Below are positions 1 through 10,260 of a stretch of 10,846 nt of DNA, one piece after another. Source of the DNA: a virus; UHGV virus genome UHGV-0335014; one strand, given 5' to 3'. A program made the translations under genes and the position numbers. Numbering within the stretch: position 1 is the stretch's first letter; each line of letters opens with the position of its first letter. The notes under the pieces were generated by a model. The model had not been told where the DNA came from and did no database searches. It saw only the letters and a program-made list of their open reading frames with translations.

Positions 1-2706
1 ACGCTGAATGATTTTCTTGGTGCCATGACTGAGGATGATGTCCGTCCGGAGGCACTGCGCCGTTTTGAGCTGATGGTGGAAGAGGTGGCGCGTAACGCGT
101 CCGCGGTGGCACAGAACACGGCAGCCGCGAAGAAGTCAGCCGGCGATGCCGGCACATCTGCCCGTGAGGCGGCAACCCATGCGACTGATGCTGCAGGCTC
201 AGCACGCGCAGCCAGCACGTCAGCCGGACAGGCCGCTTCGTCGGCTCAGTCAGCGTCTTCCAGCGCAGGAACGGCATCAACAAAGGCCACTGAAGCGGAA
301 AAAAGTGCTGCCGCTGCAGAGTCCTCAAAAAGCGCGGCGGCCACCAGTGCCGGTGCCGCGAAAACGTCAGAAACGAATGCTGCAGCGTCACAAAAATCAG
401 CAGCCACTTCTGCATCCACTGCGACGACGAAAGCGTCAGAAGCCGCCACTTCAGCCCGGGATGCGGCGGCCTCAAAAGAGGCAGCGAAATCATCAGAAAC
501 GAACGCATCATCAAGCGCCAGTAGTGCCGCTTCCTCGGCAACGGCGGCAGCAAATTCTGCGAAGGCGGCAAAAACGTCCGAGACGAACGCCAGGTCTTCT
601 GAAACGGCAGCGGAACAGAGCGCCTCAGCTGCGGCAGACTCTGAGACAACAGCTGCATCATCGGCCCGTGAGGCGTCCATTAAGGCAGAGGAGGCAGCAG
701 TCAGTGCCACCGCCGCCGGAAAATCGGCAGAAAGCGCCGCATCATCCGCTTCAACAGCCACAACGAAGGCTGGCGAAGCCACTGAACAGGCCAGCGCAGC
801 AGCGAGGTCTGCTTCCGCAGCGAAGACATCCGAAACGAACGCGATAGCGTCGGAAACCAGCGCAGAATCCTCAAAAACGGCTGCCGCATCGTCCGCCAGT
901 TCGGCGGCGTCATCGGCATCATCGGCGTCTGCTTCAAAAGATGAGGCGACCAGACAGGCGTCAGCAGCGAGGGGCAGCGCCACGACGGCATCCACGAAGG
1001 CGACAGAGGCTGCTGGCAGTGCGGCAGCGGCAGCACAGAGCAAAAGTACGGCAGAATCCGCAGCAACGCGCGCCGAGACAGCAGCAAAACGGGCAGAGGA
1101 TATTGCATCCGCCGTGGCGCTTGAGGATGCGAGCACGACGAAAAAGGGGATAGTACAGCTCAGTAGTGCGACTAACAGCACTTCCGAGTCACTGGCGGCA
1201 ACACCAAAAGCCGTTAAGGCCGCGTATGACCTAGCTAACGGGAAATACACCGCACAGGATGCAACGACAGCACAGAAAGGGATAATCCAGCTAAGCAGCG
1301 CGACCAACAGCACGTCTGAAACGCTGGCGGCAACGCCAAAGGCAGTAAAAGCAGCCAATGACAATGCTGAGAAACGTCTGCAGAAAGATCAGAACGGTGC
1401 GGATATCCCTGGCAAAGATACCTTTACGAAAAATATTGGTGCCTGCCGTGCCTTCGGTGGGTCAGTAAGCACAACAACAGGAAACTGGACGACTGCACAG
1501 TTTATCGAGTGGCTGGATTCTCAGGGAGCATTTAACCATCCATACTGGATGTGCAAGGGTTCCTGGTCTTATGGCAATAATAAAATCATTACTGATACTG
1601 ACTGCGGTAATATTCATCTCGCCGGAGCTGTCATTGAAGTAATGGGGATAAAGTCAGCGATGACGATCCGCATTACCACACCGACCACCTCCACTGGTGG
1701 TGGAACAACTAACGCCCAGTTTACCTATATTAATCACGGAACAGATTATTCACCTGGCTGGCGAAGGGACTATAACTCCAGAAATAAGCCAACGGCATCA
1801 GAGATCGGGGCGTTACCGTCAGGTGGAACAGCAGTATCATCAGTTAATCTGGCTTCAAAAGGTCGGGTAACCGCGCTGACAGACAATACGCAGGGGGCAG
1901 CAGGTCTTGAGTTATACGAGGTGTATAACAACGGATATCCAACAGCGTATGGAAATATCATTCACCTGAAAGGGATGACAGCCGTTGGCGAAGGTGAGTT
2001 ACTCATCGGCTGGAGTGGTACAAGCGGTGCTCATGCTCCGGCATTTATTCGTTCACGACGGGATACGACCGACGCAAACTGGTCGCCGTGGGCGCAGCTT
2101 TACACCTCGGCTCATCCTCCTGCAGAGTTTTATCCAGTCGGTGCACCAATCCCGTGGCCATCAGATACCGTTCCGTCTGGTTATGCCCTGATGCAGGGGC
2201 AGACTTTTGACAAATCTGCATACCCGAAACTTGCAGTTGCTTATCCGTCAGGCGTGATCCCTGATATGCGTGGCTGGACGATTAAGGGCAAGCCCGCCAG
2301 TGGTCGGGCCGTATTATCTCAGGAACAGGACGGCATTAAATCGCACACCCACAGCGCCAGCGCATCCAGTACGGATTTGGGGACGAAAACCACATCGTCG
2401 TTTGATTACGGAACTAAATCCACAAATAACACCGGAGCACATACACACAACTTTGCTTACAACAATACTTCAGCATACGCAGAAACTCCCGGTACCGGTG
2501 GTGGAATGCATGCAACTAACACAAGAAAGACAGCAAGTAATCGCGTATTAAGCGCAGGAGCTCATACTCACACAGTAGCAATAGGTGCGCATACACATAA
2601 GCTCGCTATTGGTTCGCACACACACACCATTACCATTGCCGCTTATGGCAACGCGGAAAACACCGTAAAAAACATCGCATTTAACTATATTGTGAGGCTT
2701 GCATAA
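1..2706 (+). CDS. stf: Side tail fibre protein, 5'-truncated at the window edge (lambda Stf-like / P2 gpH-like). Ala/Ser-rich shaft with KTSETNA repeats, a lower-GC central module, and a His-rich HxH C-terminal region.
   Basis: Frame is open from nt 1 (no upstream stop), so the ATG at 25 is probably internal. From memory the translation closely matches lambda Stf (LNDFLxAMTEDD...[13 protein letters not shown] near the N-terminus; [14 protein letters not shown] motif; C-terminal PIPWPSDxVPSGY...[12 protein letters not shown]...[33 protein letters not shown] and the terminal [16 protein letters not shown]). The stop overlaps the tfa start as TAATG. Confidence 0.9.
361..842 (+). repeat. Ala/Ser-rich low-complexity shaft region of the tail fibre, with four dispersed copies of a K-T/S-SETNA coding motif
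   Basis: Near-identical 20-mers aaaacgtcagaaacgaatgc (361), aaatcatcagaaacgaacgc (488), aaaacgtccgagacgaacgc (570) and aagacatccgaaacgaacgc (823), embedded in GC-rich Ala/Ser codon repeats. Confidence 0.6.
1141..1356 (+). repeat. In-frame tandem duplication inside the tail fibre gene (two diverged copies of the segment encoding K/[28 protein letters not shown])
   Basis: Copy 1 starts at about 1141 (aaaaaggggatagtacagctcagtagtgcgactaacagc...), copy 2 at about 1273 (cagaaagggataatccagctaagcagcgcgaccaacagc...). The two encode nearly identical peptides with many synonymous nucleotide differences. Confidence 0.7.
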
Positions 2707-3305
2707 TGGCATTCAGAATGAGTGAACAACCACGAACCATAAAAATTTATAATCTGCTGGCCGGAACCAATGAATTTATTGGTGAAGGTGATGCATACAT
2801 TCCACCTCATACAGGTCTACCTGCAAATAGTACTGATATTGCTCCGCCAGATATTCCAGCTGGCTTCGTGGCTATTTTCAACAGTGATGAGGCATCGTGG
2901 CATCTTGTTGAAGACCATCGGGGTAAAACAGTTTATGACGTGGCATCAGGGGACGCGTTATTTATTTCTGAACTCGGCTCATTACCGGAAAATGTCACCT
3001 GGTTATCCCCGGAAGGGGAGTTTCGGAAGTGGAACGGCACAACGTGGGTGAAAGATGCAGAAGCAGAAAAAGTGTTCCGGATACGGGAGGCGGAAGAAAC
3101 AAAAAACAGCCTCATGCAGGTAGCCAGTGAGCATATTTCGCCACTTCAAGATGCCGTAGATTTGAATATTGCAACAGAGGAAGAAACATCGTTACTGGTG
3201 GCATGGAAGAAGTATCGAGTGCTGCTGAACCGTGTTGATACATCAAGAGCACCGGATATTGAGTGGCCAGCTTCCCCAGTGGAATCAAGGAGTAAACAAG
3301 CATAA
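2706..3305 (+). CDS. tfa: Tail fibre assembly protein (lambda Tfa / P2 gpG family chaperone)
   Basis: 199 aa beginning [44 protein letters not shown], which matches recalled lambda Tfa over nearly its whole length. Start overlaps the stf stop (translational coupling). GC-rich like stf. Confidence 0.9.
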
Positions 3306-3324
3306 AGGCTTTCATTTCAAACCA

Positions 3325-3348
3325 TTGTAGTCCAGTTTTTTGTATAGT
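3325..3348 (+). promoter_or_regulatory. Candidate sigma70-like promoter elements for the cargo gene (TTGTAG ... TATAGT)
   Basis: TATAGT (3343..3348) is a 5/6 match to the -10 consensus and TTGTAG (3325..3330) a 4/6 match to -35, but the spacer is only 12 bp, so this is weak. Placed in the 95-bp gap between the tfa stop and the likely ATG start. Confidence 0.2.
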
Positions 3349-3399
3349 ACCCTGCTCATTTCGGATGACATGTGTGATTTGGAATTTCAGGGTACCATT

Positions 3400-4578
3400 A
3401 TGAATGTTATTTCATCATTAAAACAGCTTAACAGACAGCGAAATATTAAAACAAAAAAGATAAAGACGAAGGCCAGACTGGCATTTCTAAAAATGCGATA
3501 CAGAAGGAAAACATCATTACAGCCGGATAGTTATAAAACAGTGTGCATTTTCATGCACATGCAAGCCATTGGTGACGGCATCGTTACCTCAGGGTTTATT
3601 AAACAACTTCAAAAATCCGGTATGGTGGTATATGTGATAGCACCTTCAAGAGTATCATTCCTCTTTACTGATATTGTTGGCGTGGATGCCTTTATATCTT
3701 ACGAGAAAAATAAATTTAACGAACTAAAAGCAAAGATAAAAAAACTGAATGTAGATCTTGTTGTTGACTTCTCAAATTTTGATAACACAGCGATAACCAG
3801 ATTGCAAACACTACATTTACTTAGACCTAAACACTCTATCTGTTTTAATCATCCTGCCGTAACTATTTTTGATACAAATATAATCGACAATCGTTCCATT
3901 CACACATCTGAAAGAATGAAAAAAGTTTTATCTTTACTAAAGATAAAAAATAATAATTATGCTGCAGCGCTTAATTTTGACAATAAAATATATGAGCCAG
4001 CAAATATTGTTGCAAATGAATTCAGGAAGAAAAACAAAAAATTAGTTATATTTAACCCTTATGGCTCTCAGAATAGCAGAACCTTATCTGATGAACAGAT
4101 AAACAAAGTACTAGCTTACCTTAATAACCTTAAGGGATATCACACAATAGTTTTTAATATGGGAAAACAGATTAATCATAATGGATTGGATAATGTGTCT
4201 CTATCTCCATTTTCTGATGCCGGATGTTCATTTGCATTGGTTCGCCATGCTGATTTTGTTATAACTGTAGATACTGCCATTGTACATTTAGCCAGTGCAT
4301 TAAACATTAGACAATACTGTATATATAATAACAGAATGCATGAAGGAAAATTCGAAAATAATATTGTGTGGGGGCCAAACAGCAAATTAGCGACTCAACT
4401 CACCACATCCGAACATCTAAGGTCTGAAGGGGGCGACGATATGCATAAATTCGACATAATGATCTTAATTAATGCTATCAAACAAGATTTGACAAACGAT
4501 ATACCGAATTACCACTCGGATTTAGGTTGTAAAAATAGATCCAGAAACCCAGAATTAGAAAGTAGCAATTCTTTATAA
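3400..4578 (+). CDS. AT-rich cargo gene: GT-B fold, GT9-like (ADP-heptose heptosyltransferase-like) glycosyltransferase with a Lys/Arg-rich N-terminal extension. Start is uncertain: TTG 3340 (ORF-track start), ATG 3370 or ATG 3400.
   Basis: Long ORF in a markedly AT-rich segment. Translation carries three motifs that line up with LPS heptosyltransferases WaaC/WaaF as recalled: an N-terminal IGDGIVTSGFIKQLQ (cf. IGPSWVGDxxxxxxLxxxLK), a central IFNPYGSQNSRTLSDEQ (cf. GFCPGAEFGPAKRWP) and FVITVDTAIVHLASALN (cf. IVTNDSGLMHVAAALN). An AGGG Shine-Dalgarno candidate lies 8 nt upstream of ATG 3400, and a TATAGT -10-like hexamer overlaps the TTG at 3340, which argues against that start. Confidence 0.7.
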   Translation: MNVISSLKQLNRQRNIKTKKIKTKARLAFLKMRYRRKTSLQPDSYKTVCIFMHMQAIGDGIVTSGFIKQLQKSGMVVYVIAPSRVSFLFTDIVGVDAFISYEKNKFNELKAKIKKLNVDLVVDFSNFDNTAITRLQTLHLLRPKHSICFNHPAVTIFDTNIIDNRSIHTSERMKKVLSLLKIKNNNYAAALNFDNKIYEPANIVANEFRKKNKKLVIFNPYGSQNSRTLSDEQINKVLAYLNNLKGYHTIVFNMGKQINHNGLDNVSLSPFSDAGCSFALVRHADFVITVDTAIVHLASALNIRQYCIYNNRMHEGKFENNIVWGPNSKLATQLTTSEHLRSEGGDDMHKFDIMILINAIKQDLTNDIPNYHSDLGCKNRSRNPELESSNSL

Positions 4579-4631
4579 AGTAGAAACCTCAACAGTTTTA
4601 TCAGGACCTACGATATATTATATAACAACAA

Positions 4632-4665
4632 GCCGCCCATTACCCAATATGAGGGTATTGGCGGC
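4632..4665 (-). terminator. Candidate intrinsic terminator closing the minus-strand tail operon after gpU; may also affect read-through from the plus-strand cargo gene
   Basis: Imperfect stem-loop GCCGCC-cat-TACCC / 8-nt loop / GGGTA-tt-GGCGGC (6+5 bp with a small internal loop), 9 nt beyond the U stop. On the minus strand it is followed by a T-rich tract (TTGTTGTTATATAAT). Lies in the convergent gap between the cargo gene and U. Confidence 0.35.
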
Positions 4666-4674
4666 AATGTAAAA

Positions 4675-5169
4675 TCAGAACAGTCCTTTAACTGAACTGG
4701 TCGCGCTGTTAAGAGATGATGTCACCTTATCTTTGAAGCCGGACAGCATATCGCTGAACGATGAGGATTGCAGGCGCTCCCGCAAATCCTCATCACAGCG
4801 TTCAAGGGTCAGTGAAAATTCTATCTTTTTCGCCTTACCGTAGCGATCAAACTCGGAACGGGTCGTATTCGTTCCGGTCAGGACATACATGCCGTAAATC
4901 TGCCCGACACCATCAATCAAAGGCCAGGGTCGTCCTGTATACGCCTGCGTGGTCAGCAGCGACAGCGACACTTCGCCACCTGTAATTTCAGGATAAAGCA
5001 CACCAGAAAGCACGATGCGATCATCACCTGCACCGATATACTGCCAGCTTGCTGAACGGTTAACGCGTTCATTTTTCACATGCCGCCAGCTTTTGTTTTG
5101 CTGTAACTGCTGATGCGGCAGCGTGCGCAGCTCAAAAACAAACATGCCGTAGATCATCATCATGGCCAT
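4675..5169 (-). CDS. U: Tail protein gpU-like (P2 U family), last gene of the tail operon
   Basis: 164 aa ORF immediately downstream of the tape measure gene on the same strand, which is the canonical position and size for gpU. A GAGGAG Shine-Dalgarno overlaps the T stop. Start may be the ATG at 5163 (the third Met) rather than 5169. Confidence 0.7.
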   Translation of the reverse strand: MAMMMIYGMFVFELRTLPHQQLQQNKSWRHVKNERVNRSASWQYIGAGDDRIVLSGVLYPEITGGEVSLSLLTTQAYTGRPWPLIDGVGQIYGMYVLTGTNTTRSEFDRYGKAKKIEFSLTLERCDEDLRERLQSSSFSDMLSGFKDKVTSSLNSATSSVKGLF

Positions 5170-5175
5170 GACTCC

Positions 5176-8019
5176 TCAATCTTTATCGTAAAAACTTCCA
5201 CGCCCGGCACGGGCGCGCCGTTCCATTTCTGCCCTGACCATTTCACCGACCAGTTTCGCCAGTTCGCGGGGATTCTGCGTAACAACGTTATGCAGATGAA
5301 CATGAATTTCACCGCCAAATCCGGAGGCAACAGGCTCCCGGTTACGGGAAGTTGCAGGAACTGATGCCACTGGCGATCGTATGGCCTCTGCCACCGGGCG
5401 GGAGCTGGCCGCAACAACAGGGACCAGCGCCGGAGACAGCGGAGCCGGAACCACAGGTGTGATATTAATTGCGGGGGCAGGCTTACTGACCTGCGCAATC
5501 TTCCGCTCCTGCCACTCCCCACGAACAGCAAGTGCGCGGGGCAGGTTCTTAAAGACAATATCGCCGAGGCCAATGCGTTTTTTCGTCTCATCAACCAGCT
5601 TACCTGTGTTATCAGCAATTTTGCTGAGTCTGCGTAGCGTACCGGTATTGCTGTCTGTGAGCGGTTTGTTGTCTTTGGGTTTATCACCTCCGGTGCCATT
5701 GCCATTTTCCACAGGCTTCGGCGGATTGATTTTCGCCAGGTCCCCCTGAAGCAAGGCAACCTTGTCCTGAAGAATGGCCGCACGCTGTGCGTCTTCGATT
5801 TTCTTGCGCGCCCTTTCCGCTTCATCCGGAAGCACACCGAGCTTTTCAAGTATCCACGCCAGCGTATCCAGCAACATTTTTGCAGGTGTCAGAACAAGTT
5901 GTAACGCACCGCCAAGAACGTTACCGAATATCTCGCCAGCACTGGTACATTTATCCAGCGTTTCCTTGCTGGACTCCATCGGTGACAGCAGCGATTTAAA
6001 CCAGTTAAACACCTGGCTGATCCCACTCCCGATTGCGTCAAAAACAGGACCAAACCGTTCAAAGGTTTCGCGCAACGGGGTCAGCCTTTCCATAATCCCG
6101 CTGAACACCCCGGCAAAAAATGCCCTGATGGGATCCCAGTATTTCCAGATAAGAACGGCAGCTCCGGCAAGCGCAGCCACGATAAGACCAACCGGACTGA
6201 ACAACGCCCCGATAGCGCCTCCCAGTAAAGAAACGGAACCCGTCACCATTCCCCACAGCGCAGGCAACACCCTGACGACATTCATTGACCGGGTAAGAAT
6301 GTCAAAACCAAGACGCAGGGTGGCCAGCTTCCCGTAAAGCACCCCAATAACCAGCGACAACGAGCCAATCGTTGCAGTCATTGCCAGCAGTGCACCGCCT
6401 GCAATCAGTAGCTGGCGCGTCAGTGCGGGATGGGCCTGCGCCAGCGCCGTCACCTTTGATACCACACGCGTGAGCCACTGCGTGACAGAACGCAGCGGAC
6501 CGTCAATCAGATCTGCAATGCGGATGCGCAACCCTTCCCATGCACTGCTGAGTGATTTCAGATCGCCGTCAAGGTTGTTGGCCATAACCTTTGCCGTGCG
6601 TTCAGCCTCACCGCGCGCCCCTTCAAGTTCTTTTCTCAGTTTGGGTAAGGAGCCGTCACCAGCCGCATCAACGAGGGCCATAAATGATGTGAAAGCCTCT
6701 TCTCCGGCAATGTCCTTAAAGAACGATACCCGGTCAACTTCCCCGTATTTGCGGGTAGCTTTATAAAGGTCAGCCAGCACATCCTCCATCGGGCGCATTT
6801 TGCCCCCGGCATCCGAGACAGACACGCCAAGCTCTTTCAGCGCCTCTGCTGCCGCCTTTGGCGGTGATGCCAGACGAGCCAGGCTGGCACGCATTGCCGT
6901 CCCGGCATCACTCCCTCTGATACCCATATTCGCCAGCACGCCCGCCATCGCTGCGGCCTGCTCCAGCGATATTCCCAGCTTACCCGCCACCGGACCTGCA
7001 TATTTCATGGTTTCGCCCAGCGCGCGAAGGTCAGTGTTAGTACGGGTAAACGCTGCTGTAAGCGTGTCACCGACCCGGTCCATCTGGTCAGCGGAGAGGC
7101 CGAACTGCGTCAGGATATTTGAGCCAATATCCGCCGTCTCGCCAAGGTCCATACCGCCAGCCGTTGCCATGCTCAGCACGCCCGGAAGCGCAGCCTGAAT
7201 GGCCTGCGGTGTGAAGCCAGCCATTGCAAGAAATGCCTGCCCACTGGCGGCATCGCCTGCGGTGAACTGCGTTTCAGAGCCAAGTTTTAACGCCTGCTCA
7301 CGCAGCGCCTTAAACTGCGGGCTGTTTTTGTCGATTCGCGTCAGTGCCTGAACGCGGGACATCTCTTTCCCGAACCCGATCGCAGGCTGCAAAAAACGCC
7401 CGGCAGCATAGCCGCCCGCCGCTGCCGCACCAATTGCCAGCGCACCACCTGTTTTCAGTTTTCCCGCTGTTTCCTGCGCGCGCGAATACCGCTCACGCGC
7501 CCGTGTTACACGCGCAAGCGCCTGCCGTTCGCGTTCAAGCTGGTTGTTGTACTGTTCGGTGCGTCTGATGGCCTGCTGGATGGTGTTATCGCTGCCTGTC
7601 AGGGAAATGCCGTGGCGTTTCAGCTCTCCGCCAAGCTCCCGCATTTTCTGAATTTCCCGTGTGCGCGATTCATTCAGGCGTTCAAGCCGGGTGCTTAACT
7701 GCTGCATCAGCTTTTGTTGTTTTTCGCTGAGCACTGTACCCGTGCGTTGTAACTGATTAAGGGCGTTAAGCTGGCGTCGTGCTTTCACGATGCCCGCATC
7801 CGCTTTACTGACAGCGTCACGGGCGCGCTCAAATGATCGCGCCTGACGCTCGAGATTTTTGATCGCCCCCTGCGTTCGCTGGATGGAGTCACCAAACTGC
7901 CCCATCAGGCGGCGGGCGTTTTCGGCAGGCCGGGTCAGCCTGTCAACGGCGCTGAAAGCGACCCGGATATCAAGAGTCTTCATTGTCTGCATTCCCGCTA
8001 CGAAGTGCCGCCCGCTCAC
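5176..8019 (-). CDS. T: Tail tape measure protein (P2 gpT-like)
   Basis: 947 aa. N-terminal region is rich in coiled-coil-like, charged sequence (RQLNALNQLQRTG...QQLSTRLERLNESRTREIQKMRELGGELKRHG), followed by Gly/Ala-rich and hydrophobic segments (LLIAGGALLAMTATIGSLSLVIGVLYG; GGAIGALFSPVGLIVAALAGAAVLIW), all typical of tape measure proteins. Sits between the E/E' chaperone genes and gpU. The ORF-track start is a GTG at 8019; ATGs at 7992 and 7983 are alternatives. Confidence 0.85.
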   Translation of the reverse strand: MSGRHFVAGMQTMKTLDIRVAFSAVDRLTRPAENARRLMGQFGDSIQRTQGAIKNLERQARSFERARDAVSKADAGIVKARRQLNALNQLQRTGTVLSEKQQKLMQQLSTRLERLNESRTREIQKMRELGGELKRHGISLTGSDNTIQQAIRRTEQYNNQLERERQALARVTRARERYSRAQETAGKLKTGGALAIGAAAAGGYAAGRFLQPAIGFGKEMSRVQALTRIDKNSPQFKALREQALKLGSETQFTAGDAASGQAFLAMAGFTPQAIQAALPGVLSMATAGGMDLGETADIGSNILTQFGLSADQMDRVGDTLTAAFTRTNTDLRALGETMKYAGPVAGKLGISLEQAAAMAGVLANMGIRGSDAGTAMRASLARLASPPKAAAEALKELGVSVSDAGGKMRPMEDVLADLYKATRKYGEVDRVSFFKDIAGEEAFTSFMALVDAAGDGSLPKLRKELEGARGEAERTAKVMANNLDGDLKSLSSAWEGLRIRIADLIDGPLRSVTQWLTRVVSKVTALAQAHPALTRQLLIAGGALLAMTATIGSLSLVIGVLYGKLATLRLGFDILTRSMNVVRVLPALWGMVTGSVSLLGGAIGALFSPVGLIVAALAGAAVLIWKYWDPIRAFFAGVFSGIMERLTPLRETFERFGPVFDAIGSGISQVFNWFKSLLSPMESSKETLDKCTSAGEIFGNVLGGALQLVLTPAKMLLDTLAWILEKLGVLPDEAERARKKIEDAQRAAILQDKVALLQGDLAKINPPKPVENGNGTGGDKPKDNKPLTDSNTGTLRRLSKIADNTGKLVDETKKRIGLGDIVFKNLPRALAVRGEWQERKIAQVSKPAPAINITPVVPAPLSPALVPVVAASSRPVAEAIRSPVASVPATSRNREPVASGFGGEIHVHLHNVVTQNPRELAKLVGEMVRAEMERRARAGRGSFYDKD

Positions 8020-8508
8020 GCCAGCTAACCACTTCGCCGGGCGTCATCATGAAGATTTCGGCGGGCGACCAGTTAAAAATGGCGGCAATATCCGCCACCA
8101 GATCTTCGATGTGCTCAAAGCACACCAGGGTGATTACGCTGCCGTCTCCTGCACGCTCTTCGCGCCAGAGTCTGGCTCGCTCATAAAATTTACAGCCACA
8201 GCGCACAACTGAATAAAATCGCGTGACGACATTTTTTTAATCATCACTTCATCCAGTCGTGGCGAGGTCACGCGAGGCAACAGCGTAAACATGGTATCCG
8301 CTTTCAGATTCAGCACATCAGACAGCGACAGACCACGCAGGGATCCAGCCTGCTCAATAGCCCCGGTGATCTCCACATACGTGATTTTTTCGCCACCACG
8401 CTCAATTGGTCGGGTCAGTTTTACGCCACGTTCGACAGCCATATCCTCACCTGCCGTCACATCATCCGCCACGGTGTTATTCCGGGTTTCAGTATCGATG
8501 TCTTTCAT
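7970..8508 (-). CDS. E+E': Predicted E+E' fusion product made by a programmed -1 translational frameshift at an A7 tract (minus-strand 8238..8232); E' portion ends at 7970
   Basis: The -1 frame relative to E is open from just after a TAA at 8242..8240 down to the stop at 7970. On the minus strand the E frame reads ATT AAA AAA ATG across a run of seven A (plus-strand T7 at 8232..8238). The E' reading frame overlaps the start of T. Conserved strategy in P2-like and other long-tailed phages. Confidence 0.5.
8134..8508 (-). CDS. E: Tail assembly chaperone gpE-like (P2 E family), zero-frame product
   Basis: 124 aa ORF between the tail tube and tape measure genes, with a strong AAGGAG Shine-Dalgarno 7 nt upstream of the ATG at 8508. 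Its 3' end is overlapped by a -1 frame ORF that runs on to 7970, the arrangement expected for the E/E+E' frameshifted chaperone pair of myovirus tails. Confidence 0.75.
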   Translation of the reverse strand: MKDIDTETRNNTVADDVTAGEDMAVERGVKLTRPIERGGEKITYVEITGAIEQAGSLRGLSLSDVLNLKADTMFTLLPRVTSPRLDEVMIKKMSSRDFIQLCAVAVNFMSEPDSGAKSVQETAA

Positions 8509-8563
8509 CAGTTGTCTCCTTTTCAGTCAGAGGCGACGCACTGCGCCGCCTGCATATTACTTA

Positions 8564-9076
8564 TCAGCCAAGCCCAAGCGCGGAACGGATACGGTCAGGC
8601 ACAATGTCCTTGCCGTCCTTCCGGTAGATGTGGTTCAACAGGTCGATTTCCCACAGCGGGCGATCGTTAACGCTCAGCTTGTAGTAGGTGTTTTTGACAG
8701 CGTAAGTGTGTGATGTGGCTTCGCCCTGTTTGGCTTCCCCCATATCAATTTCCGTCACACGCCCGCGCATCTCGATTTCATACAGATCGCTTTCTGCATC
8801 GGTGTAGTATTCACCCGCAAAACGCAGCAGCGTGCCGTCAATCGTGCCGCCATATTTAAGGAACAGCGCACGAACAGCTCCCCCCATGACAAAACTCGCA
8901 TCAAGCGCGGAGTCGTCCAGACCGAGATCAATACTTACCGCCCCCATCATGCCACCACCACGATAGCTGTCGGTTTTGCGCGTCAGTTTGGGCGGCGTGA
9001 CGGATGTCACTTTGCCCACTTCGTTTTCACCATCCACAAACAACGTAAAAAAGCGAAGATGTTTTGGTACAGCCAT
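8564..9076 (-). CDS. FII: Tail tube protein (P2 gpFII-like)
   Basis: 170 aa ORF directly downstream of the sheath gene, with the start overlapping the sheath stop (minus strand ..TGATG..) and a GGGAGGTG Shine-Dalgarno. Size and position match gpFII (about 172 aa in P2). Confidence 0.8.
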   Translation of the reverse strand: MAVPKHLRFFTLFVDGENEVGKVTSVTPPKLTRKTDSYRGGGMMGAVSIDLGLDDSALDASFVMGGAVRALFLKYGGTIDGTLLRFAGEYYTDAESDLYEIEMRGRVTEIDMGEAKQGEATSHTYAVKNTYYKLSVNDRPLWEIDLLNHIYRKDGKDIVPDRIRSALGLG

Positions 9077-10260
9077 CAGGCACCTCCCAGCACCGCAAAT
9101 GCGGGACCAAAGAATTCATCAGTAAACGTCTGGTAAAGCTCCATGTCTTCCAGTGGCGGAACGGGCGTATATTTGTAGCGAATACGCACACGTCCCTGAC
9201 GTAAATTCGTGGTGCCGTTATCCACCACGTCATACCAGCACTCCGCACCAATCAGTTTCCCGGCAGTAACCAGCGAATCCAGTTTTGCCCTGATGGCGCT
9301 GATAACATCCTTCACGTTCGCAGGTGTCAGTGGACTGTCGATGGTTTCAAACTGCGCTTCCGCAATTGAATCAGCCAGCACCTGTGCGGTTCGGGTATAC
9401 ACCTCAAAGATGTAGGCGTTCGTTTCCGGTGTGCGGTTGCCCCAGAAGCGGAACCCGTTGCGACGAATAATGGTCGTGATTTCTTTGTTGTTGAGGCTGT
9501 TGGCATCACTGTCTTCGGCCTGCAACGACCAGAACACATGCCTGGACATTCCCAGCACATTTTTAACCGGAACGTTGGACAGCGATTTGTGCCAGCCCTG
9601 CTCATGGTCAATGTACGCACGAAGGCCGCACGCATAAGCAGGCGCGGGGAACGTTTCGTTTTTGCCACTTTTCGGGTTGTAGGCGATGAAGTCAGGCCAT
9701 AAGAGCATCACCTCACGTTCGTTGAATTTCTGGCGGTAGGTAATCGCCTCAGCCATCGTGTTACAACCATGACATGTGGCATACACAAACGCGCGCAGTT
9801 TACCCGCAATCACGCACAGGGATTTTGTCACCGCCTCCGTGTCCAGCTCCGGCGCGGCCAGAATACGCGGACGGTATCCGATGCTTTCATCCTGCTCTGC
9901 AACAAGCAGCGCATACATCCCCGTATAGCTGCCGTCAGATTCAGAACCACCGATAACCAGTTGATCCTGCGTTTTTCCGTCTTCTTCTTTGTGTTCAGCC
10001 ACGCGAACGACGATCACCTTTGTGCTCACCTGGTCTGCGATGGCCTTAAGCGCACGATAAAGCGTCCCCGTTGTTCCGCATTTTCCCAGCACGTCATTGA
10101 CGCGGGTCAGCAATGTGGGCTTGTTCAGCGGGAACAGCTCCGCGTCCGCATCATCCGCCGTTGCCACGATACCGATAACGCTGGAATCAACATCGTTAAT
10201 CGCTGTTACCAGGTCGGTATTTTCCGTAACACGGGCACCATGAAAACGAGTTTCACTCAT
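9076..10260 (-). CDS. FI: Contractile tail sheath protein (P2 gpFI-like)
   Basis: 394 aa. Conserved blocks recalled from P2 FI and sheath homologues: AELFPLNKP, GTLYRALKAIADQ, KLRAFVYA, YRQKFNEREVMLLWPDF, HEQGWHKSLSNV, GFRFWGNRT, VYTRTAQVLAD, YKYTPVPPLE. Confidence 0.9.
   Translation of the reverse strand: MSETRFHGARVTENTDLVTAINDVDSSVIGIVATADDADAELFPLNKPTLLTRVNDVLGKCGTTGTLYRALKAIADQVSTKVIVVRVAEHKEEDGKTQDQLVIGGSESDGSYTGMYALLVAEQDESIGYRPRILAAPELDTEAVTKSLCVIAGKLRAFVYATCHGCNTMAEAITYRQKFNEREVMLLWPDFIAYNPKSGKNETFPAPAYACGLRAYIDHEQGWHKSLSNVPVKNVLGMSRHVFWSLQAEDSDANSLNNKEITTIIRRNGFRFWGNRTPETNAYIFEVYTRTAQVLADSIAEAQFETIDSPLTPANVKDVISAIRAKLDSLVTAGKLIGAECWYDVVDNGTTNLRQGRVRIRYKYTPVPPLEDMELYQTFTDEFFGPAFAVLGGA

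What the first reader, a model, noticed from the sequence alone, without database searches (positions are those of the whole stretch)
3400..3560. Lys/Arg-rich N-terminal extension ahead of the glycosyltransferase core
Before the first GT9-like motif (IGDGIVTSG), the protein has about 50 to 70 extra residues that are strongly basic (LKQLNRQRNIKTKKIKTKARLAFLKMRYRRK). Canonical LPS heptosyltransferases begin almost directly with the Gly-rich motif, so this extension is an add-on. It could mediate nucleic-acid binding, membrane association or targeting to a protein substrate, and it is the part most likely to define a function different from housekeeping heptosyltransferases. The true start codon is also unresolved (TTG 3340, ATG 3370, ATG 3400), which changes the length of this extension.
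Basis: seen in the sequence. Interest (0 to 1): 0.45.

Follow-up and report, generated by a model that had tools for sequence, protein, structure and literature searches.

The report
Basic N-terminal helix of prophage WaaU-like glycosyltransferase
The lysine/arginine-rich stretch is real and translated, but it is the standard N-terminal helix of the WaaU-type branch of LPS heptosyltransferase-like enzymes, here carried as cargo next to the tail-fibre genes of an E. coli P2-like prophage.

Summary
Window 3418-3510 encodes LKQLNRQRNIKTKKIKTKARLAFLKMRYRRK: 14 K/R in 31 residues, no acidic residue, shuffle p about 0.001.

The start codon is resolved to ATG 3400. Homologues begin there, and three have in-frame stops 0-33 nt upstream with no alternative start. 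RefSeq uses the same start. The extension is therefore 46 residues. AlphaFold2 predicts one long helix (residues 2-33), an ordered linker (34-46), then beta1.

The extension is not a private add-on. It is as conserved as the catalytic core in 34 homologues of 39-98% identity. It recurs in 146 representatives of a large GT9 subfamily. E. coli K-12 WaaU (outer-core heptosyltransferase IV) has one too, with its GD motif at residue 53 against 12 in WaaC and WaaF. Profile comparison with WaaU gives 99.4% probability, E = 8e-22.

Chromosomal relatives sit in waa LPS-core clusters. Phage-borne copies sit directly after tail-fibre (assembly) genes in three kinds of myovirus prophage. The gene has 29-35% GC against 47-59% in the flanks.

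The likely role of the helix is anchoring or acceptor contact at the anionic membrane/LPS surface; this is inferred, and a hydrophobic-moment test for amphipathicity was negative. Nothing supports nucleic-acid binding or protein-substrate targeting. This is an ordinary feature of a little-studied subfamily.

The parts
3400..4578 (+). CDS of the GT9-fold glycosyltransferase (392 aa, stop included); a WaaU-like subfamily member carried as prophage cargo
3389..3392 (+). Shine-Dalgarno-like AGGG, 7 nt before ATG 3400
   Evidence: Read directly from the sequence. Providencia homologues have a similar AAGGG or AAGG at the same spacing. TTG 3340 and ATG 3370 have no comparable element.
3400..3498 (+). 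Residues 1-33: one long N-terminal alpha-helix. Residues 7-24 are polybasic and carry the signature L-N-R-x-R-N-I-K-T-K-K-I-K; residues 25-34 form a hydrophobic/aromatic block.
   Evidence: AF2 gives helix 2-33 with pLDDT 83-89. The Dickeya homologue gives helix 3-32 with pLDDT 84-94. N11, R12, N15, K19 and K22 are at least 90% conserved.
3418..3510 (+).
   Evidence: 14 K/R in 31 residues, no acidic residue, shuffle p about 0.001. All-pairs identity is 48%, against 49% for the catalytic core.
3499..3537 (+). Residues 34-46: ordered linker (Y34, R35 and Y45 conserved) joining the helix to beta1
   Evidence: pLDDT 95-97 and no regular secondary structure. Conservation of Y34, R35 and Y45.
3538..3552 (+). 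beta1 of the N-terminal Rossmann-like domain (residues 47-51, TVCIF)
   Evidence: AF2 strand 47-51. A start at M52, as implied by PHROG 36326, would delete this strand.
3568..3594 (+). Gly-rich loop IGDGIVTSG with invariant G58 and D59, the position of the GD motif of WaaC, WaaF and WaaU
   Evidence: Invariant in 34 and in 55 sequences. Aligned to KLGDLIV of WaaU.
4267..4290 (+). C-terminal-domain motif VDTAIVHL with invariant D291, T292 and H296, equivalent to VDTGLSHL of WaaC
   Evidence: Aligned to WaaC residues 260-267. Invariant across the family.
4510..4575 (+). Residues 371-392: C-terminal tail predicted as disordered and absent from most homologues
   Evidence: pLDDT below 50. The alignment shows the tail only in the closest relatives.
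4628..4670 (.). GC-rich hairpin between the convergent GT9 and gpU genes; a candidate bidirectional terminator
   Evidence: MFE is -20.3 kcal/mol on the + strand and -21.6 on the - strand. The simple terminator scan did not call it.
2706..3305 (+). Tail fibre assembly gene directly upstream (context)
   Evidence: Pfam Caudo_TAP, E = 1e-44. Four Providencia homologues likewise follow tail-fibre or tail-fibre-assembly genes.
4675..5169 (-). P2 gpU-like tail gene, convergent with the GT9 gene (context; other edge of the cargo slot)
   Evidence: Pfam Phage_P2_GpU, E = 1.5e-38. Sibling prophages carry an acetyltransferase between tfa and gpU instead.

Best explanation
Window 3400-3537 encodes the N-terminal 46 residues of a 392-aa GT9-fold glycosyltransferase whose translation starts at ATG 3400. 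These residues form a 32-residue helix and a 13-residue ordered linker that precede beta1 of the N-terminal Rossmann-like domain. The helix has a polybasic half with the near-invariant L-N-R-x-R-N..K..K signature, a short hydrophobic/aromatic block, and an R-K-K cluster. This module is the hallmark of the WaaU-like branch of GT9. It is present in E. coli K-12 WaaU (outer-core heptosyltransferase IV) and in chromosomal waa-cluster enzymes. It is absent from the inner-core enzymes WaaC, WaaF and WaaQ.

Shown: the sequence and its composition, the start codon, conservation, the predicted helix, subfamily membership, the LPS-cluster context of relatives, and the cargo position in the prophage.

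Inferred: the hydrophobic block and linker pack on the catalytic domain. The basic arm, with its conserved Asn/Arg/Lys face, contacts an anionic surface, either inner-membrane phospholipid or the phosphorylated Kdo/heptose inner core of the lipid-linked acceptor. This would hold the soluble GT-B enzyme at the cytoplasmic face of the membrane with its cleft positioned on a distal core sugar.

Also inferred: the enzyme adds a terminal sugar, most likely heptose from ADP-heptose, to the LPS outer core of the lysogen. As cargo beside the tail-fibre genes it would change the LPS receptor or the O-antigen attachment site (lysogenic conversion).
For: Start codon:
- RefSeq starts the gene at the position equal to window 3400.
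- 22 of the 28 homologue sequences that reach this alignment column have Met there.
- In L002, L003 and L004 an in-frame stop lies 15, 0 and 33 nt upstream of the homologous ATG, with no alternative start.
- An AGGG lies 7 nt upstream of ATG 3400.

Conservation and structure:
- Residues 7-37 show 48% all-pairs identity, against 49% for the core.
- N11, R12, N15, K19, K22, R35 and Y45 are at least 90% conserved.
- The conserved polar residues (280-20 degrees) and the hydrophobic stripe (180-240 degrees) fall on adjacent faces of a helical wheel. The variable residues cluster on the remaining face.
- AF2 gives helix 2-33 at pLDDT 83-89 and linker 34-46 at pLDDT 95-97. A 27%-identical Dickeya waa-cluster homologue gives the same architecture, with helix 3-32 at pLDDT 84-94.

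Subfamily membership:
- BLASTP to K-12 WaaU gives E = 1e-16, against about 1e-3 for WaaC, WaaQ and WaaF. The GD motif is at residue 53 in WaaU and 12 in WaaC and WaaF.
- hhalign to WaaU gives 99.4% probability, E = 8e-22, and the alignment includes the second half of the helix. WaaC aligns over only 48 columns.
- In 146 full-length representatives the median GD position is 57, the median net charge of the extension is +9, and 99 of 146 have N-[RHWK]-x-[RK] near the N-terminus.

LPS role:
- P0009 (55% identical) lies between two GT8 genes and waaA-coaD in a waa cluster.
- P0181 lies in hldD-waaF-waaC-[P0181]-waaL.
- The Orbus copy is next to a GT2, another GT9 with an N-terminal extension, two sulfatase-family (PF00884) genes that may be phosphoethanolamine transferases, and lapAB.
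- WaaU adds Hep IV to Glc III, which is the O-antigen attachment site (PMC13293308, PMC4483631).

Cargo:
- GC is 29-35% in the gene, against 47-59% in the flanks.
- Sibling prophages carry an acetyltransferase in the same slot.
- Homologues follow the tail-fibre or tail-fibre-assembly gene in P2-like, E217/Pam3-like and Mu-like prophages.
- More distant GT9 proteins carry a TM-like hydrophobic N-terminus at the same position, which suggests this position can serve as a membrane anchor.
Against: - No experiment or coordinate-level analysis was possible. I could not see where the helix sits in the AF2 models.
- The hydrophobic moment of the extension is no higher than in shuffled controls across 143 family members (median z 0.16; 8% at p <= 0.05). 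It is therefore not a classical in-plane amphipathic membrane helix.
- Strict conservation of particular Asn/Arg/Lys positions, together with one variable face, fits docking on a defined protein or ligand surface at least as well as non-specific electrostatic membrane binding.
- Identity to WaaU is only 23%. WaaU lacks the LNRxRN motif, and no NCBIfam equivalog threshold is approached. Donor sugar, acceptor and linkage are therefore unknown.
- No promoter-like site was found upstream of the gene, so expression in the lysogen is not established.
Confidence: 0.6

Rival explanations
1. The helix is purely structural or an oligomerisation element. It packs against the enzyme's own N-terminal domain, or pairs with the same helix of a second subunit (the conserved hydrophobic positions 3, 7, 10, 21, 25, 28 and 32 are heptad-like). 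It would have no direct role in membrane or acceptor binding, and its basic character would be incidental or would serve solubility.
For: pLDDT of the helix is high (83-89 and 84-94) in two independent models, and the linker is very confident. Two conserved faces and one variable face is the pattern of a docked helix. The amphipathicity test was negative.
Against: Net charge of +9 to +14 with almost no acidic residues is kept across hundreds of diverged proteins. Heptad positions 14 and 17 are conserved Arg and Lys. Distant GT9 proteins have a TM-like anchor at the same position. GT-B enzymes that act on lipid-linked acceptors commonly use basic surfaces to bind the membrane (established knowledge, not tested here).
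Confidence: 0.25
2. The basic stretch binds nucleic acid, or targets the enzyme to a protein substrate as in the autotransporter heptosyltransferases TibC and AAH. This would give the phage enzyme a function unrelated to LPS.
Confidence: 0.04
3. The basic stretch is not part of the mature protein. Translation would start downstream at M52 (ATG 3553), as in the 341-aa PHROG 36326 models, or upstream at TTG 3340 or ATG 3370.
For: The PHROG 36326 profile begins at M52 of the 392-aa protein. The open frame extends back to 3340.
Against: A start at M52 deletes beta1 and the fully conserved residues 7-51. There is no SD-like element before M52. The upstream candidates are not conserved and are impossible in L002, L003 and L004 because of in-frame stops. 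Homologues and RefSeq start at the ATG 3400 equivalent.
Confidence: 0.04

Closest known systems
E. coli K-12 WaaU (formerly RfaK; ADP-heptose:LPS heptosyltransferase IV, b3623)
   Same: Both have the GT9 fold and motifs. Both carry an N-terminal extension of about 40-45 residues built as basic, then hydrophobic, then basic, before beta1 (GD at 53 in WaaU, 58 here). WaaU is the best-scoring named relative: BLASTP E = 1e-16 and hhalign 99.4% probability over 307 columns, including part of the helix. Chromosomal relatives of the phage protein occupy outer-core positions in waa clusters.
   Different: Identity is only 23%. WaaU has FHKKKRFY where this family has LNRQRN. The window gene is prophage cargo rather than part of the waa operon. 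Donor, acceptor and linkage of the phage enzyme are unknown. Even the WaaU activity is annotated as 'putative' in the K-12 record.
Inner-core LPS heptosyltransferases WaaC (HepI) and WaaF (HepII), solved structures 2h1f/6dfe and 1psw
   Different: They have no N-terminal extension (GD at residue 12). Sequence similarity is confined to about 48 columns. They act on Kdo2-lipid A or on Hep I, close to the membrane.
Prophage lysogenic-conversion LPS modifiers (GtrABC/GtrABS glucosylation, O-antigen acetyltransferases)
   Same: Like those, this is a carbohydrate-modifying enzyme carried as AT-rich cargo beside tail-fibre genes. Sibling prophages carry an acetyltransferase in the same slot. There is precedent that such modifications block phage adsorption (PMC11990801).
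   Different: This is a single cytoplasmic GT-B enzyme of the core-assembly type. It is not the periplasmic Und-P-sugar three-gene Gtr system. The expected target is the core rather than the O-antigen repeat.
Autotransporter heptosyltransferases TibC/AAH (BAHT family)
   Different: There is no adjacent autotransporter gene, no Cys cluster for an iron-finger and no extra beta-barrel domain. Similarity is much weaker than to the LPS enzymes.

Membership tests
Glycosyltransferase family 9 (Pfam PF01075; GT-B fold) | Score above the Pfam gathering threshold | tested here: met
   26.7-26.9 bits against a cut-off of 22, but only over the C-terminal domain (residues 206-312 of the 392-aa protein). 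52 of 55 subfamily members match.
Glycosyltransferase family 9 (Pfam PF01075; GT-B fold) | Two-Rossmann GT-B fold whose closest solved neighbours are GT9 enzymes | tested here: met
Glycosyltransferase family 9 (Pfam PF01075; GT-B fold) | Conserved Asp in the Gly-rich loop after beta1 and the D-T-x-x-x-H motif in the C-terminal domain (WaaC D13 and D261 as I recall the literature) | tested here: met
   G58, D59, D291, T292 and H296 are invariant in 34 and in 55 sequences. They align to WaaU KLGDLIV and to WaaC VDTGLSHL.
Glycosyltransferase family 9 (Pfam PF01075; GT-B fold) | Use of ADP-heptose as donor | not testable with these tools
   Needs an enzyme assay or LPS mass spectrometry.
WaaU-like (heptosyltransferase IV type) GT9 subfamily | Markedly closer in sequence to WaaU than to HepI, HepII or HepIII | tested here: met
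   BLASTP E = 1e-16 against 1e-3 to 2e-2. hhalign gives 99.4% over 307 columns against 48 columns for WaaC.
WaaU-like (heptosyltransferase IV type) GT9 subfamily | N-terminal extension of about 40-45 residues (basic plus hydrophobic) before beta1 | tested here: met
   GD at residue 58 here, 53 in WaaU, and a median of 57 in 146 representatives.
WaaU-like (heptosyltransferase IV type) GT9 subfamily | Encoded in the chromosomal waa core operon | tested here: not met
   The window gene lies between tail fibre assembly and gpU of a P2-like prophage. Its relatives P0009 and P0181 are in waa clusters.
WaaU-like (heptosyltransferase IV type) GT9 subfamily | Same reaction as WaaU (Hep IV onto Glc III of the K-12 core) | not testable with these tools
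   23% identity argues against strict orthology. No NCBIfam equivalog is reached.
BAHT protein heptosyltransferases (TibC/AAH) | Adjacent autotransporter substrate gene and an iron-finger Cys cluster | tested here: not met
Gtr-type prophage O-antigen glucosylation | gtrA flippase, gtrB GT2 and a serotype-specific membrane GtrC | tested here: not met
   A single soluble GT-B gene occupies the slot, with no gtrA or gtrB in the window.

The most novel reading that the evidence does not exclude
The basic N-terminal helix may be the device that lets a GT9 enzyme work on distal (outer-core) sugars of the lipid-anchored LPS precursor. It would act as an anchor or spacer lying on the anionic lipid A-inner core surface. 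Myovirus prophages of at least three lineages would then have captured such an enzyme to cap the LPS outer core of their lysogens. Capping would mask the core receptor used by their own tail fibres (superinfection exclusion) or change the O-antigen ligation site.
Probability: 0.3. Interest if true: 0.55.

Novelty: new member of a known kind. Interest (0 to 1): 0.3.

Why it matters
For the finding itself the result is deflationary. The basic extension is a family trait shared with K-12 WaaU, not a sign of an unusual function. Three things are still useful.

1. The start codon is fixed at ATG 3400, and the 341-aa PHROG 36326 models are shown to be N-terminally truncated.
2. A clear, previously unnamed sequence signature separates WaaU-like GT9 enzymes from the inner-core heptosyltransferases: an L-N-R-x-R-N basic helix, a hydrophobic block, then R-K-K. 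It could improve annotation and suggests how those enzymes meet their substrate.
3. A core-type LPS glycosyltransferase recurs directly after tail-fibre genes in unrelated myovirus prophages. This points to a testable form of lysogenic conversion at the level of the LPS core, which is relevant to phage host range and to phage-therapy resistance.

Tried and rejected
- Megablast of 3200-4700 against the INPHARED phage records found nothing. The element is known only as a prophage: 49 of 5426 complete E. coli genomes and about 15 IMG/VR contigs.
- The AFDB50 fold library was unavailable.
- BFVD gave only distant GT9-like viral proteins.
- A profile search of PDB sequences found only the short C-terminal motif in WaaC. 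No solved structure covers the extension.
- No member of the subfamily reaches an NCBIfam equivalog threshold.
- Classical amphipathic helix hypothesis: the hydrophobic moment against shuffles was negative, so I dropped the phrase 'amphipathic in-plane helix'.
- Transmembrane helix hypothesis: only 1 of 146 representatives has a 19-residue window with Kyte-Doolittle above 1.6. Rejected for this family.
- Promoter scan: no sigma-70-like site between 3306 and 3399. Whether the gene has its own promoter or is read through from the tail-fibre operon is left open.
- Literature searches returned nothing on this protein or on the extension. The searches covered heptosyltransferase with prophage and tail fibre, GT9 with prophage, prophage-encoded LPS core glycosyltransferases, and heptosyltransferase N-terminal extension.
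- Nucleic-acid binding and protein-substrate targeting were rejected on context and fold grounds.
Full report
**What is in the window**

The window is part of a P2-like prophage of E. coli.
- The genes are a tail fibre gene (25-2706, +), a tail fibre assembly gene (2706-3305, +; Caudo_TAP, E = 1e-44), and an ORF open from 3340 to 4578 (+).
- Convergent on the minus strand are gpU (4675-5169; Phage_P2_GpU, E = 1.5e-38), the tape measure gene, the tube gene and the sheath gene.
- The 1.5 kb around the ORF is at least 95% identical in 49 of 5426 complete E. coli genomes, always chromosomal. PGAP annotates it as 'glycosyltransferase family 9 protein' flanked by 'tail fiber assembly protein' and 'phage tail protein'.
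- It has no match among deposited phage genomes. It does occur in about 15 IMG/VR prophage contigs.

**Check of the observation**

- The quoted string LKQLNRQRNIKTKKIKTKARLAFLKMRYRRK is encoded at 3418-3510. It has 8 Lys and 6 Arg in 31 residues and no Asp or Glu.
- Residues 1-37 from ATG 3400 have net charge +14 and 38% K+R, against 11% in the catalytic part.
- Only about 0.1% of shuffles of the whole protein produce so basic a 31-residue window.
- The motif IGDGIVTSG follows at residues 57-65.
- K-12 WaaC and WaaF, read from the MG1655 record, have their GD motif at residue 12.

**Start codon**

Four lines of evidence agree on ATG 3400.
- RefSeq starts the protein there (WP_001100987.1, 392 aa).
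- In the alignment of 34 homologues (39-98% identity), 22 of the 28 sequences that reach this column begin with Met there. The few longer models have unrelated upstream sequence.
- In the Providencia and Orbus loci L002, L003 and L004, an in-frame stop lies 15, 0 and 33 nt upstream of the homologous ATG, with no other start codon in between.
- ATG 3400 is preceded by AGGG at a 7-nt spacing, as in the Providencia genes. TTG 3340, ATG 3370 and the internal Met codons have nothing comparable.

The PHROG family that matches this protein (phrog_36326, E = 8e-243) begins at M52. That start would remove strand beta1 and 45 conserved residues, so those phage gene models are truncated. The extension is therefore 46 residues long (nt 3400-3537).

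**Anatomy of the extension**

- AlphaFold2 with the 34-sequence alignment gives a confident model (pLDDT 90.1, pTM 0.86).
  - Residues 2-33 form one continuous helix. pLDDT rises from 83 to 89 along it.
  - Residues 34-46 form an ordered linker (pLDDT 95-97).
  - beta1 is residues 47-51, and the usual GT-B core follows.
  - Residues 371-392 are disordered and are found only in the closest relatives.
- A second model, of a 27%-identical Dickeya protein, shows the same arrangement: helix 3-32 at pLDDT 84-94 and beta1 at 47-52.
- Within the helix, N11, R12, N15, K19, K22 (and R35 and Y45 in the linker) are at least 90% conserved.
- On a helical wheel the conserved polar residues occupy 280-20 degrees. 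A hydrophobic stripe (positions 3, 7, 10, 21, 25, 28, 32) occupies 180-240 degrees. The variable positions (5, 6, 9, 13, 20, 23, 24) fall on the remaining face.
- Residues 25-34 form a hydrophobic/aromatic block (consensus L-K-L-F-Y-M-K-L-F-Y), followed by R-K-K.
- The segment 7-37 is as conserved as the catalytic core: 48% against 49% all-pairs identity.

**The protein is GT9-fold and WaaU-like**

- Sequence matches to GT9 are weak. Pfam gives 26.7 bits, over the C-terminal domain only. NCBIfam heptosyltransferase models score far below their cut-offs.
- The GD loop (G58, D59) and the VDTxxxH motif (D291, T292, H296) are invariant.
- An exhaustive profile search found 3115 cluster representatives at E <= 1e-3 and 748 at E <= 1e-10. 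Among 146 full-length ones:
  - the GD motif sits at a median position of 57;
  - the extension has a median net charge of +9;
  - 99 carry an N-[RHWK]-x-[RK] motif near the N-terminus, for example KLRELNRQRNY in Dickeya and Erwinia and MIRKLNRQFQDY in Fusobacteria.
- As similarity falls to HepII/HepIII-type sequences, the extension disappears (GD at 12-18).
- The named enzyme in this branch is E. coli K-12 WaaU.
  - Its N-terminus is MRLGTFHKKKRFYINKIKINFLSFLFRNKINNQITDPAQVKSCLIIHDNNKLGD, with GD at residue 53.
  - BLASTP to the window protein gives E = 1e-16, against about 1e-3 for WaaC, WaaQ and WaaF.
  - hhalign gives 99.4% probability (E = 8e-22) over 307 columns that start inside the helix. 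WaaC aligns over 48 columns only.
- The literature describes WaaU as ADP-heptose:LPS heptosyltransferase IV. It adds the fourth heptose to the third glucose of the K-12 outer core, which is the O-antigen attachment site (PMC4483631, PMC13293308).
- I found no paper that mentions the N-terminal extension.

**Genomic context of relatives**

| Relative | Identity to window protein | Context |
|---|---|---|
| P0009 | 55% | Textbook waa cluster: GT4, Kdo-family kinase, GT4, GT8, GT8, [this family], waaA, coaD, GT2, mutM, rpmG, rpmB, radC |
| P0181 (Dickeya) | 27% | hldD-waaF-waaC-[P0181]-waaL. In that cluster WaaF, WaaC and a WaaQ-like protein have GD at 12, 12 and 22; P0181 and one further GT9 have GD at 58 and 48. 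|
| P0032 (Orbus) | 43% | Next to a GT2, a second extension-bearing GT9, two sulfatase-family (PF00884) genes and lapAB |
| P0029, P0027 | 46%, 47% | Polysaccharide gene clusters: a WaaL-like (Wzy_C) gene, a Wzx-type flippase gene and other GT genes beside P0029; sugar-nucleotide genes and a Wzx-type flippase gene beside P0027 |
| P0020 | 50% | Isolated chromosomal gene with no LPS or phage genes beside it |
| P0011, P0016, P0025 (Providencia) | 53%, 51%, 48% | Directly after the tail-fibre or tail-fibre-assembly gene of E217/Pam3-like myovirus prophages |
| P0018 (Providencia) | 52% | Directly after the tail-fibre-assembly gene of a Mu-like prophage, followed by a GT2 gene |

In the window the gene has 29-35% GC, against 47-59% in the flanks. 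Sibling E. coli prophages with the same tfa and gpU genes carry a hexapeptide-type acetyltransferase in this slot instead. The gene is therefore exchangeable cargo in a slot that collects carbohydrate-modifying enzymes.

**Mechanism**

Shown:
- The extension is translated, conserved and predicted helical.
- It is a hallmark of the WaaU-like branch.
- It is absent from the inner-core GT9 enzymes.

Inferred:
- The hydrophobic block and linker belong to the folded body, as the pLDDT gradient suggests.
- The polybasic arm, with its conserved Asn/Arg/Lys face, contacts an anionic surface: inner-membrane phospholipid and/or the phosphorylated, carboxylated lipid A-inner core of the acceptor.
- This contact would position the catalytic cleft on a distal core sugar.

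One observation supports the inference. More distant GT9 proteins have a TM-like hydrophobic segment at exactly this position.

Two observations count against a simple version of it.
- The hydrophobic moment of the extension is no greater than in shuffled controls (median z 0.16 over 143 proteins). It is not a classical amphipathic in-plane helix.
- Two conserved faces and one variable face fit docking on a defined surface. That surface could be the enzyme itself or a partner subunit.

I could not inspect model coordinates, so the structural or oligomerisation rival stays at about 0.25.

For the phage, the most economical reading is lysogenic conversion. A terminal sugar, probably heptose, would be added to the LPS outer core, altering the receptor or the O-antigen ligation site. 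There is precedent for prophage Gtr systems that block phage adsorption (PMC11990801). Expression in lysogens is not established. No promoter-like site was found in the 94-nt gap after the tail fibre assembly gene.

**Rejected readings**

- Nucleic-acid binding and protein-substrate targeting (TibC/AAH-like) have no support. The same extension sits in enzymes embedded in waa clusters. No autotransporter gene or Cys cluster is present. TibC is a much poorer structural match.
- A downstream or upstream start is contradicted by conservation, structure and in-frame stops in homologues.

**Verdict**

The interpretation as a distinctive add-on is only partly right.

The protein is a new, phage-borne member of a known but poorly characterised kind. 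Interest is modest at 0.3. What remains of value is the sequence signature that separates WaaU-like from inner-core GT9 enzymes, and the recurrent capture of such an enzyme next to the tail-fibre genes of unrelated myovirus prophages.

Noticed in passing
window 25-2706 (+): The N-terminal half of the tail fibre protein is a long Ala/Ser/Thr-rich low-complexity repeat. It creates spurious long ORFs in other frames (146-847 +, 246-1364 -). The C-terminus carries repeated HxH motifs (GAHTH...IGAHTH...IGSHTH).
   Followed up: no
window 4675-10260 (-) and L001 9476-16318: The sheath-tube-E/E'-tape measure-gpU module lies on the minus strand, convergent with the tail fibre genes. A short (266 aa) gpD/VgrG-like gene follows on the plus strand. 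As I remember the P2 map, this module is inverted relative to P2.
   Followed up: no
L010 2565-3137 and L011 2566-3111: Sibling E. coli prophages with the same tfa and gpU genes carry a 'serine O-acetyltransferase' or 'transferase' gene on the minus strand in place of the GT9 gene. The tfa-gpU slot is a cargo hot spot for carbohydrate-modifying enzymes.
   Followed up: partly
window 3400-4600: GC content drops to 29-35% across the GT9 gene, against 47-59% in the flanking phage genes. This indicates acquisition from an AT-rich donor; the homologues are from Providencia and Orbus.
   Followed up: yes
L001 5265-6493; hit H20 (NZ_CM166354.1): The prophage is decaying in some hosts while the GT9 gene is kept. 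In strain A8 an IS3 element splits the tail fibre gene. In strain CH468 an IS5/ISKpn26 element interrupts the matched 1.5-kb region around the GT9 gene.
   Followed up: no
L003 8001-10111 and L006 6001-8118: The GT9-like gene is paired with a GT2 gene both in the Orbus chromosome and in a Mu-like Providencia prophage. This may be a two-enzyme LPS-modifying cassette. The E. coli prophage carries the GT9 gene alone.
   Followed up: no
proteins P0241, P0243, P0247, P0249, P0252: More distant GT9 proteins have a TM-like hydrophobic N-terminus (for example MIYVLLTYLFYPFLSLIASLKKK) at the position where this family has the basic helix.
   Followed up: no
window 3553 (M52 of the 392-aa protein): The PHROG 36326 profile (341 positions) starts at M52. 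The phage gene models behind it therefore lack the N-terminal helix and strand beta1, which is probably a systematic start-codon miscall.
   Followed up: partly
window 4628-4670: A GC-rich hairpin (about -20 kcal/mol on either strand) lies between the convergent GT9 and gpU genes. It is a candidate bidirectional terminator that the simple scan did not report.
   Followed up: partly
window 4510-4575: The last 22 residues (DIPNYHSDLGCKNRSRNPELESSNSL) are predicted to be disordered. They are absent from all but the closest homologues.
   Followed up: no
L044 10516-11616 (-): The Dickeya waa cluster holds a further GT9 gene with a different basic N-terminal extension (MKKGWKFKAVDFYLRLVAARKARLQ, GD at 48). 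N-terminal basic extensions may have arisen more than once among non-inner-core GT9 enzymes.
   Followed up: no
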